Of a stretch of DNA of 64,000 bases, positions 61,916 to 64,000 are shown one piece after another. Source of the DNA: Perna viridis (lineage: Eukaryota); assembly GCA_037379345.1 (NCBI GenBank), contig CM074518.1:8432001-8496000 (forward strand), read 5' to 3'. Under the pieces are notes generated by a model, which was not told the DNA's origin, did not search any database, and worked only from the letters and a program-made list of their open reading frames with translations. Numbering within the stretch: the first letter of the stretch is position 1; every line of letters begins with the position of its first letter. Position numbers and translations under genes: made by a program.

Positions 61916-62210
61916 ATAAACCAATTTTTTTTTGTTTTGTTTTAATTTGTTCTTTTTTTAATAATTTTACGATTTCAGTAGTAGTGATTTTAGCCTGCCC
62001 ATTCGTGTACCTCGAATATAGTGCACAATAAAATCTACGTTACATCTTATTCATTCTTAAAGCTACTAAACGCATCAATTACTCATGCACAAAAATGATA
62101 TTATGTCAGTTATACAGAAATCCATAACCATTTTTGTTTCCTGTTTGGAGTTTTATCGTCAAACAAGTATTTCTACGCACTTTCCTAAAAGGAGAAAAAG
62201 AATACCTACT

Positions 62211-62537
62211 GTGTAGCCCCTTAGAAAAGCAACATCTAAGAGGAATATGGTTGCCCTAATTCGGGGATGACACTATGCGCAAAGTGTTCAAAGTTATAAT
62301 GGTTTACGTCCATAGATCCCATAATGGACAATTTCGGTCCCCCTTACATGCTATACCAACCGAGATGCCCTCTATTCACTATACCAATTGTGTAGCCTCT
62401 TAGAAAAGCAACATCTAAGAGGAATATGGTTGTCCTAATTCGGGGATGACACTACGCGCAAAGTGTTTAAAAGTTATATTGGTTTACGTCCATAGATCTC
62501 ATAATTGACACTTTGGGCCCCCCGTACATGCTATATC
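62211..62537. repeat. ~180-bp tandem duplication (possible TIR-internal repeat)
   Basis: GTGTAGCC.CTTAGAAAAGCAACATCTAAGAGGAATATGG at 62211 and 62390. Confidence 0.9.
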
Positions 62538-62799
62538 AAGAATTGGACAGATTTTATATGGAAGACTGCGAATGAATTGTAGTTCTTTAAGTGATCTTTT
62601 TTCCCGCAACCTAGTGGATTCACCGAATTGCGTTTGCGGTAGGAGTGAATTAATATCTCATTTCTTATTACATTGTGATAAATATCGAGAACTTCGCAAT
62701 GAGGCTCTATTTTCCATAAATTTACCAGTTATGTTAAAGTAGTTTCAAAAGGCCGATTCTGCCGCACTTGCCATTTTCAAGGGGAAATCCTGCATAGGA

Positions 62800-62832
<33 letters not shown>

Positions 62833-62837
62833 GCCAA

Positions 62838-63242
62838 ATGCAAACGGACGGCATTCCTATTGAGCATAGGGTAAATACAAGAATTACGTCTTTCGTACAC
62901 AATGGATTCGTTGACATTCCCACAGATTGGGATGACTTCATCAGCGAAGACGCCGTCCAGGAGAAGCTGCAGGATCAGAATCAGGAAGCACTCAAATGGA
63001 AGGACTTACCCATCGGTGTGATCTGTAAGATCTTGGAGGTGGTAGAAGTGGATGGAAAATTCGGCAAAAGTAGAATCCTCACCCTGAAGGATCGAGACGG
63101 AGAGACCACCAGGATATGGGCCTGCCCCTTGCTCAACAAAGAGAAAGGTCCTTTGCAAGGATCTTTCGTTCGGAGCACTGGATTCAAGGTGAGTAAGAAA
63201 TCTCAGCAGCAGTACCTCTCCTATGATCTGGTGAGGAAGTAA
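62838..63242 (+). CDS. Polinton/adintovirus-type small protein, possible OB-fold ssDNA-binding protein
   Basis: Intact 134 aa with a beta-rich pattern KWKDLP..GKFGKS.ILTL..IWA..FVRSTG.K.SK..Y.SYDLV; AATAAA overlaps the stop. The fold is an inference. Confidence 0.6.
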   Translation: MQTDGIPIEHRVNTRITSFVHNGFVDIPTDWDDFISEDAVQEKLQDQNQEALKWKDLPIGVICKILEVVEVDGKFGKSRILTLKDRDGETTRIWACPLLNKEKGPLQGSFVRSTGFKVSKKSQQQYLSYDLVRK

Positions 63243-63278
63243 TAAAAAAATAATCGAGGGCTATGGGTAAGGGGTTCG

Positions 63279-63322
63279 AAATTTCCCAATCCAAATTACT
63301 GGATTGGGAAATTTTTTTTTTT
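63279..63322. terminator. Perfect 15-bp hairpin plus T11 run between convergent ORFs
   Basis: AAATTTCCCAATCCA-AATTAC-TGGATTGGGAAATTT; a terminator role is inferred from position only. Confidence 0.45.
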
Positions 63323-63324
63323 GG

Positions 63325-63934
63325 TCACTTGGAACTTTGATCTGGAGGATTCTGGAATAAGCGTGGGAAGCGAGGCGTAGCCGAGCGAGGCGCGCGTTGG
63401 AAGAATCCTCCCAATGGCGCAAGCGCAGTAAAGTCTTCGCTAAAAGTGGTGGCCGTGGAAGGTTTTCGCAGCTGCTGCTTTTCGTCGTAGTAGAAGCTAA
63501 GACATTTCACAACCCCTGCAAATTCAGATTCATCGATATCATCATCCTCCAGGCCTTTGCTCACTGCATCTTCGATCTTGGATTGGTAGGATCTGACGAT
63601 GTGCACGGTATCTTCATGCTTTTTACGCTTTTTGGCGGATGCGCTTGGCTAGCACCGCCAACCCTGCCATCGTGATGGAATTCACGACGGCTAGTGAGCT
63701 CAACGGAATGAATGCCACGGCGCCTATCCCCGTTGCGGCGGTGCTGAGTGTGCCAGTGGTGCAAACTACGTTGAGTACTGCACAGGTACCCAGAGCAAAA
63801 GACACCGCTTTTCCCACTCGTTTATAGTTCCTCGACAGTCGAGCATACTTATGCTTTTCGGATTCAAGCTCTTTCTCGATCGACTCGATTCTAGCTTCTC
63901 GGTAGGAGTGCTTCCCCAAGTCTATGTCGTCCAT
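63325..63934 (-). pseudogene. Adintovirus GasderminX-like membrane protein, split by a single frameshift
   Basis: YR..RIESIEKELESE..KY.R, a Gly/Ala-rich double hydrophobic segment, then in a shifted frame KKHEDTVHIVRSYQSKIEDAVSKGLEDDDIDESEF. Confidence 0.7.
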
Positions 63935-63944
63935 TTATCTATAT

Positions 63945-64000
63945 CTAGAGGAGCATGCCCAAGATGGGGATGCTTTTGAAGGGGCTATTGGGACCAAGGA
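63945..64000 (-). CDS. C-terminus of an adintovirus/Polinton small core-like protein (partial)
   Basis: Reads LGPNSPFKSIPILGMLL-stop, ending 10 nt before the GasderminX-like ATG; the motif is recalled from adintovirus small proteins. Confidence 0.55.
   Translation of the reverse strand, partial: LGPNSPFKSIPILGMLL

What the first reader, a model, noticed from the sequence alone, without database searches (positions are those of the whole stretch)
61971..64000. Probable terminus and first genes of an endogenous adintovirus/Polinton
Seen: AGTAGTAGT at 61977 preceded by GATTTC, an ~850-bp non-coding arm with a 180-bp duplication, a rise in GC near 62.8 kb, and three tightly packed intronless genes that look little decayed, one with an A/T-rich TAGATAAATG start context. 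Established: Polintons begin with AG/AGT repeats, have long TIRs and make 6-bp TSDs; adintoviruses encode GasderminX. Inference: a fairly recent viral integration whose pPolB, integrase, ATPase, protease and capsid genes lie beyond the window.
Basis: partly seen in the sequence, partly recalled or inferred. Interest (0 to 1): 0.7.

Follow-up and report, generated by a model that had tools for sequence, protein, structure and literature searches.

The report
Broken Polinton copy inside host repeat
The window ends in the left 1.3 kb of a 6.9-kb virus-like transposon (a Polinton/adintovirus) that has lost its polymerase, integrase and protease genes and is likely a dead copy of a multi-copy family of a well-known kind; its true end lies 760 bases to the right of the one first proposed.

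Summary
A Polinton/adintovirus is there, but not as first read. Its left end is window 62738, not 61977: 16 of 20 sibling loci start at that base, and the element closes 6,927 bp later with an inverted terminus and a perfect 6-bp target duplication (TGTTAA), confirmed by empty sites. The motif at 61977, the preceding GATTTC and the 179-bp duplication are interior parts of a host repeat into which the element inserted. This copy keeps the capsid block but has lost polymerase, integrase, protease, PLA2 and most of the ATPase through a deletion seen in no other scored copy; its capsid gene carries a host transposon and its second gene is frameshifted. Longer siblings (9.7-13.2 kb) carry those genes; 18 of 18 scored are broken somewhere. 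[quoted passage not shown] Both labels stand in published adintovirus maps, and this scan noted Polinton OB-fold proteins in two other genomes. Verdict: ordinary new member of a known kind. Side lead: clustered T>C changes in one guessed-RNA contig suggest A-to-I editing of the terminal repeat.

The parts
61911..62539 (.). Host dispersed non-coding repeat (not viral); holds GATTTC-AGTAGTAGT at 61971-61985 as an interior motif and a 179-bp tandem unit at 62202-62539
   Evidence: Matches elsewhere start upstream of the motif; the motif with its GATTTC is identical in 6 of 10 fetched loci; the repeat runs at least 1.7 kb further upstream in other copies
62535..62737 (.). Further part of the host repeat (reads like a LINE 3' fragment; label recalled, not tested); continues after the Polinton's right end
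   Evidence: Left and right flank hits abut with a 6-7 bp overlap at the same loci
62732..62737 (+). Left target-site duplication TGTTAA
   Evidence: Repeated after the right end; single copy at 5 of 5 empty sites, identical in 3; joint skipping 6,933 bases in 4 of 4 DNA-type runs
62738..64000 (.). The Polinton copy as far as it lies in the window. It runs on to G000:C8:8501664 (L001:8664; L001 = window minus 61000). Beyond the window, all on the minus strand: rest of the 192-aa gene (L001:2945-3523), 249-aa inferred minor capsid gene (3528-4277), broken major capsid gene (4292-6138) with a 460-bp host element (5466-5925), cupiennin-like 103-aa ORF (6017-6328), 285-aa ORF (6340-7197), broken Cys-rich ORF (7342-7891), ATPase remnant (7900-8241), deletion junction (about 8241-8246), right terminal repeat (8521-8664), TGTTAA (8665-8670)
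62738..62899 (+). Left terminal inverted repeat, begins AGTAGTTTC; includes an expanded CCCCGA run
   Evidence: Inverted match to the right end; same first base in 16 of 20 sibling loci
62838..63242 (+). ORF1, 134 aa, starts inside the terminal repeat; predicted OB fold (residues 55-134), likely single-stranded-DNA-binding protein
   Evidence: dN/dS 0.15-0.32 between subfamilies
63279..63314 (.). Perfect 15-bp hairpin followed by a T run between the convergent ORF1 and SLATT-like gene; possible terminator (untested)
   Evidence: I7; present in 21 of 21 copies shown, with mismatches in some
63412..63934 (-). SLATT-like two-helix membrane-hairpin gene (173 codons in siblings), frameshifted here near 63630
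63945..64000 (-). Last 56 bases of a 192-aa conserved pX-like gene, likely a virion core protein
   Evidence: 1,895 homologues; weak Adeno_PX hit in 1 of 34 and antimicrobial-peptide hit in 8 of 34 homologues

Best explanation
Window 62738 is the left end of a 6,927-bp Polinton/adintovirus copy that sits in a host repeat between 6-bp target duplications, lacks its polymerase, integrase and protease genes, and is likely a dead relic of a family that once copied itself as a virus-like element. Shown: ends, duplication, gene content, breaks, and that longer siblings carry pPolB, rve integrase, PLA2, ATPase and an adenain-like gene. Inferred from the known biology of the family: the rve integrase made the 6-bp duplication; pPolB copied the excised linear DNA from the terminal repeats by protein-primed strand displacement; ORF1 would coat the displaced single strand; the capsid block would package the genome; the SLATT-like protein is predicted to act at a membrane. 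After insertion this copy likely lost about 5-7 kb in one deletion, took up a host transposon in the capsid gene and gathered frameshifts. It could move again only with proteins supplied from elsewhere, and nothing shows that it did.
For: Ends: 16 of 20 sibling loci begin AGTAGT at the base equivalent to 62738, each with a different flank; 10 of 20 gave both ends, 8 of these 10 with a perfect 6-bp duplication. 54 exact matches to the terminal 18-mer pattern, reversed control 0. Empty sites. Gene content of siblings: PF03175 over model positions 8-460, E=2.7e-25, and no hit inside this copy among 70 matches; rve 1.4e-9, PLA2 1.4e-6, Pox_A32 4.3e-6; adenain E=0.017 with the His and Cys motifs aligned. 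Deletion junction spanned by 1 of 41 matches, itself. Decay; 18 of 18 siblings show at least one stop, frameshift or gap among seven probe genes. Past selection: dN/dS 0.18-0.20 between subfamilies, 0.47 among close copies.
Against: Two of 10 double-ended siblings lack a matching duplication. 4 of 20 loci gave no left end with my script. The adenain hit is weak and Pfam gave nothing for that ORF or for the 561-aa polymerase piece. The minor capsid label rests on position only. Only 20 of at least 40 loci were fetched, so 'all broken' holds for those scored only. The dN/dS pairs all share the window's copy and are not independent. Five of the copy's ORFs are still open, so expression from this locus is not excluded.
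Confidence: 0.93

Rival explanations
1. One reading: the element begins at 61977 with a long non-coding arm and is a near-intact recent provirus.
For: The motif and the GC rise are real.
Against: Motif at chance level and interior to a host repeat; no matching right end in 39 kb; true ends and duplication found elsewhere; core genes deleted.
Confidence: 0.01
2. The 6.9-kb capsid-only form is a selected satellite or defective-interfering element that spreads with a helper's polymerase and integrase.
For: Both terminal repeats and the capsid block are kept; other short double-ended copies exist (6.4 kb; 6.6-8.9 kb pairs of ends).
Against: The junction is found once among 41 matches from 40 scored of 94 candidates; capsid, SLATT-like and ATPase genes are broken; siblings carry many different deletions.
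Confidence: 0.04
3. The host keeps some genes of this copy or family (capsid module, ORF1) in use, as a domesticated or defence function.
For: Open frames remain; contigs of four guessed-RNA runs cover much of the family.
Against: The long contigs differ from this copy by several percent, so they likely come from other copies (table 8); the runs are not on record as RNA; dN/dS rises towards neutral among close copies.
Confidence: 0.04

Closest known systems
Alpha adintoviruses / Polintons-Mavericks (class Polintoviricetes), Starrett et al. 2021, PMC8502044
   Same: PF03175-type pPolB, rve integrase, A32/FtsK-like ATPase, adenain-like protease, double-jelly-roll capsid, PLA2 gene, inverted termini. 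Their Fig. S2 text lists SLATT and SSDBP side by side for the Hydra and Stylophora maps, with Cupiennin for Stylophora (extracted text only, maps not seen).
   Different: This copy lacks the replication and integration half. Family copies are 9.7-13.8 kb, at or under the 13-25 kb range quoted by Jeong et al.. No GasderminX could be shown. The OTU domain was not tested. I could not compare sequences with the published SSDBP or SLATT genes.
Phi29/Bam35-type and other OB-fold SSBs of protein-primed phages (PF17427; Lechuga et al., 10.1101/2021.03.25.437074)
   Same: Small predicted OB fold in a protein-primed replicon; the nearest named Atlas cluster for a homologue is PF17427 (score 0.89, 176 of 256 features, family on 44% of members); several Podoviridae SSB models among Foldseek rows at E about 3e-3 to 2e-2.
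   Different: No Pfam, PHROG or clear PDB sequence match; best solved-structure Z only 6.5 (rmsd 2.4, 67 residues) to a RuvB-like 2 domain; DNA binding untested.
Viral SLATT-like 2TM proteins of iridoviruses, giant viruses and Polinton-like viruses
   Same: Long helical hairpin with hydrophobic tip (pLDDT 90); iridovirus proteins at E=1e-5 to 6e-5 and many SLATT-named viral models at weaker E; 589 relatives.
   Different: SLATT Pfam hits in only 2 rows of one member each among 109 family members; lacks the N-terminal PSAP motif that 8 of 8 displayed distant homologues carry.

Membership tests
Polinton/Maverick (adintovirus) | Terminal inverted repeats 100-1500 bp beginning AG(T) | tested here: met
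   About 145-160 bp, AGTAGT...ACTACT; length range as; the AG start is recalled
Polinton/Maverick (adintovirus) | 5-8 bp (usually 6) target-site duplication | tested here: met
   TGTTAA here; 8 of 10 double-ended siblings
Polinton/Maverick (adintovirus) | Protein-primed PolB (family level) | tested here: met
   PF03175 in sibling copies
Polinton/Maverick (adintovirus) | rve integrase (family level) | tested here: met
   PF00665 E=1.4e-9 in a sibling
Polinton/Maverick (adintovirus) | Double-jelly-roll major capsid protein | tested here: met
   PF21738 E=1.5e-59 in this copy
Polinton/Maverick (adintovirus) | A32/FtsK-like packaging ATPase | tested here: met
   PF04665 E=4.3e-6 in a sibling; only a remnant here
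Polinton/Maverick (adintovirus) | Adenain-like maturation protease (family level) | tested here: inconclusive
   Best PDB hits are adenovirus proteases but E=0.017; no Pfam hit
Polinton/Maverick (adintovirus) | Minor capsid protein (penton) | tested here: inconclusive
   249-aa ORF next to the capsid gene; no Pfam or PHROG hit; not folded
Autonomous, intact Polinton copy | pPolB, integrase and protease inside this copy's ends | tested here: not met
   Deleted
Alpha adintovirus | PF03175-type PolB | tested here: met
   definition
Alpha adintovirus | PLA2-like gene (PLA2X) | tested here: met
   PF08398 E=1.4e-6 in a sibling; its pX tail not tested
Alpha adintovirus | N-terminal OTU domain of PolB | not tested
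   No model or profile comparison of that region was run
GasderminX (for the 173-codon gene) | Similarity to the gasdermin C-terminal domain plus a pX-like tail | tested here: inconclusive
   A SLATT-like hairpin fits better; no published GasderminX sequence was at hand for a direct comparison
GasderminX (for the 192-aa gene) | Similarity to the gasdermin C-terminal domain plus a pX-like segment | tested here: inconclusive
   Weak Adeno_PX hit in 1 of 34; not folded
OB-fold SSB (ORF1) | OB fold | tested here: met
   Five-strand model, pLDDT 78-88 over residues 51-134; most named top rows of three fold searches are OB folds, with middling scores
OB-fold SSB (ORF1) | Binds single-stranded DNA | not testable with these tools
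   Needs a binding assay

The most novel reading that the evidence does not exclude
This Polinton family encodes a phi29-type OB-fold single-stranded-DNA-binding protein as the missing partner of its protein-primed polymerase, and the host polices still-transcribed copies by A-to-I hyper-editing of double-stranded RNA formed over the terminal repeat.
Probability: 0.3. Interest if true: 0.45.

Novelty: new member of a known kind. Interest (0 to 1): 0.24.

Why it matters
Little as a locus: a decayed copy of a known kind of element, with corrected ends. The family is a clean, compact example (at least 40 loci, several age classes) of an alpha-type adintovirus whose closest named relatives are mussel proteins, with purifying selection on capsid genes between subfamilies. 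Two leads would matter modestly if confirmed: a structural identity for the 'SSDBP' label, which would name the protein that coats the displaced strand in Polinton replication, and host RNA editing of Polinton terminal repeats.

Tried and rejected
Terminus at 61977: rejected. Capsid-only satellite family: rejected, junction unique among scored matches. GasderminX: no gasdermin row in the Pfam, PDB or fold lists for gene 2 (one search shows 25 of 38 families) or for the 192-aa gene; absence from a list is not exclusion. Free-virus relatives in IMG/VR: none for ORF1 (146 pattern matches, 0 confirmed) or the capsid protein (3, 0); these scans reach close relatives only. PDB sequence searches gave nothing clear for capsid, polymerase piece, ORF1 profile or the 192-aa profile; PHROGs nothing of use. 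No tRNA gene in 55000-64000. Names for 10 gene-2 homologues: none. Insertion polymorphism could not be judged: the joined form can come from other copies of the host repeat. No RNA holder listed on record. Look-ups of earlier findings near the locus, in the genome and by sequence were empty. Literature: 'polinton'+'SSB' whole word gave 5 papers, 3 listed, none by title on a Polinton SSB; searches listed no title on it either; subscription journals and bioRxiv supplements were not searchable, and Starrett's sequence file S2 was not reached because the stored supplement text is cut.

Full report
1. Observation. The motif GATTTC-AGTAGTAGT (61971-61985), the 179-180 bp duplication (62202-62539), the GC rise and the intronless ORFs are all in the sequence. 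The motif alone is chance-level: 0.38 expected per window, 33 of 100 shuffles hold one. The window is G000:C8:8432001-8496000, so I fetched the next 39 kb in overlapping stretches. They hold no ACTACTACT.

2. The true ends. The only long inverted match to the finding's region is window 62737-62899 against L001:8665-8521. The element starts AGTAGTTTC at 62738, ends GAAACTACT at L001:8664 (6,927 bp) and is flanked by TGTTAA on both sides. Of 20 sibling loci fetched from the 41 matches, 16 gave a left end, all at this base and all with different flanks; 10 gave both ends, 8 of them with a perfect 6-bp duplication, at lengths of 6.4 and 9.7-13.2 kb. A terminal 18-mer pattern has 54 exact matches in the genome, its reversed control none. 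The left and right flanks are two halves of one host repeat: their hits abut at the same loci, and 5 of 5 empty sites examined hold the hexamer once (identical in 3). Contigs of 4 of 4 DNA-type runs join the flanks at the same bases; these may be other copies of the host repeat, so they confirm the boundary but not polymorphism.

3. What 61977 is. The long hits to 61900-62740 begin upstream of the motif and break at about 62540. In 6 of 10 fetched loci the anchor search found the motif, each time with the same GATTTC before it, so GATTTC is not a target duplication. In other copies the repeat runs at least 1.7 kb further left and carries a variable number of 179-bp units. The 'arm' is host DNA.

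4. Gene content. This copy holds, from the left: ORF1 (+), then on the minus strand the 173-codon gene, a 192-aa gene, a 249-aa gene, the capsid gene (PF21738, E=1.5e-59), three further ORFs and an ATPase remnant. At L001:8241 it jumps to the last 420 bases of the family. Siblings have there the rest of the ATPase (PF04665), a PLA2 gene (PF08398), rve integrase (PF00665), an adenain-like gene (E=0.017 to adenovirus protease) and pPolB (PF03175 over model positions 8-460, with an Endonuclease_7 segment). The missing span is 4.7-6.7 kb in four siblings, and only this copy spans the junction among 41 matches (40 scored of 94 candidates). The capsid gene is interrupted by a 460-bp host element with 1,806 candidate copies and has further breaks; the 173-codon gene is frameshifted near 63630; the ATPase remnant has a stop. 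All 18 siblings scored have at least one break or gap among the seven probes that are themselves unbroken (two further loci with short matches and three probes with breaks of their own were left out of this count).

5. Age and selection. Substitutions to the 12 closest copies are 3.1-4.7%, to the other 6 they are 6-12%; the two terminal repeats differ at 4 positions plus the length of the CCCCGA run over the first 145 alignment columns, and at 2 more just after. dN/dS over six genes is 0.47 against 12 close copies, 0.18 against 3 and 0.20 against 2 more distant ones, lowest for capsid and the 192-aa gene (0.10-0.16; one sibling was not placed in a group). All pairs share the window's copy. I read this as purifying selection while lineages replicated, then neutral decay after insertion (inference).

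6. The genes in the window. ORF1 has 24 homologues, one named as a Mytilus hypothetical protein, and no Pfam hit. Its model is a five-strand sheet, pLDDT 78-88 over residues 51-134. Fold searches return mostly OB folds at middling scores: Teb1 OB-A E=5e-3; Z 6.5, rmsd 2.4, 67 residues; small phage proteins at E=9e-5 to 4e-4 and Podoviridae SSBs at weaker E. For a homologue, the nearest named Atlas cluster is Phi29_Phage_SSB (0.89, a lead only). An SSB role is inferred from fold and from the protein-primed polymerase. The 173-codon gene belongs to a family of 589 representatives; the model of an unbroken natural sibling is a long helical hairpin (pLDDT 90) closest to iridovirus proteins and, more weakly, SLATT-named proteins of giant viruses; two SLATT Pfam models are hit by one member each of 109; solved-structure hits are generic coiled coils. 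The 192-aa gene has 1,895 homologues and weak pX and antimicrobial-peptide hits; whether it is Starrett's GasderminX stays open.

7. Comparison with what is known. Starrett et al. 2021 (PMC8502044; I read parts 1-2 of 6 of the text, passages, and text extracted from the supplement) define alpha adintoviruses by a PF03175-type PolB, tie PLA2X to alpha virion modules, and GasderminX and Cupiennin to beta-class virion modules. Their Fig. S2 text lists SLATT and SSDBP together for Hydra and Stylophora in the alpha panel, which matches the gene pair at this end; I saw labels, not maps or sequences. Jeong et al. (10.1101/2023.08.22.554363, passages) give 13-25 kb, 100-1500 bp repeats and 5-8 bp duplications and report mollusc Polintons. 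A 2026 preprint (10.64898/2026.06.19.733378, passages) treats Mavericks, Polintons and adintoviruses as synonyms and lists SLATT in its figure keys. Lechuga et al. (10.1101/2021.03.25.437074, passages) found a few nematode and insect proteins among phi29-type SSBs without assigning them to Polintons in the passages seen. Passages of PMC11886824, PMC11131425 and 10.1101/341131 added nothing decisive. PMC6651903 on ADAR editing in molluscs was seen as a listing only. Two earlier notes of this scan report Polinton single-stranded-DNA-binding or OB-fold proteins in other genomes (unchecked).

8. Side lead. Contigs of four guessed-RNA runs cover much of the family. One carries 13 T>C changes clustered in the left terminal repeat; 34 of 35 genomic repeats show none of them. 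This fits A-to-I editing of a minus-strand transcript, but rests on one contig, runs not on record as RNA, and no matched DNA.

9. Verdict. Works like, and is a member of, the Polinton/adintovirus family at family level; this copy fails the test for an autonomous element. New member of a known kind; interest 0.24.

Noticed in passing
window 62768-62876 (L001:1768-1876), run X13: One 587-nt contig of a guessed-RNA run shows 13 T>C differences clustered in the left terminal repeat; X20 and X14 share some. 34 of 35 genomic terminal repeats show none of them, one shows one (some rows cover only part of the sites). Fits A-to-I hyper-editing of a minus-strand transcript; no matched DNA, table truncated.
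   Followed up: partly
window 63279-63314: Perfect 15-bp hairpin plus T run between convergent genes, kept in 21 of 21 copies shown, including subfamilies about 11% diverged; possible terminator; no covariation test run.
   Followed up: partly
window 62838-62890 and L001:8463-8579: Both terminal repeats hold the same ATG and first codons, so the first gene at each end can start with the same peptide; several ORF1 homologues start about 16 residues later.
   Followed up: partly
proteins P0044-P0078: Distant relatives of the SLATT-like gene begin with PSAP and often LYPxL-like motifs, which recall ESCRT late domains (recalled label); this family's version lacks that N-terminus.
   Followed up: no
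L030:6587-7330: The family's pPolB carries an Endonuclease_7 (HNH-type) segment, E=1.7e-5. Jeong et al. call an HNH insertion unique to nematode and oomycete pPolB2; relation not tested.
   Followed up: no
L001:5466-5925: 460-bp non-coding host element with 1,806 candidate copies, the 40 scored at 97-100% identity: a young, very abundant repeat; not classified.
   Followed up: partly
window 61911-62737 and L001:8665-9337; L048-L057: The host repeat is a composite of about 6 kb or more with a variable number of 179-bp units and a short palindrome with GAATAGT repeats at its right end; looks like a Helentron-associated element (recalled label, not tested).
   Followed up: partly
window 60353-61124: Another tandem array, three units of about 172-175 bp at 70-92% identity.
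   Followed up: no
window 61748-61850: tRNA-like head by eye (possible SINE); repeated elsewhere; ARAGORN finds no gene.
   Followed up: no
L003:4995-5597: A 200-aa ORF about 12 kb past the right end reads like a Polinton ATPase fragment of another family by eye; no Pfam hit. One search lists further pPolB loci that were not examined.
   Followed up: no
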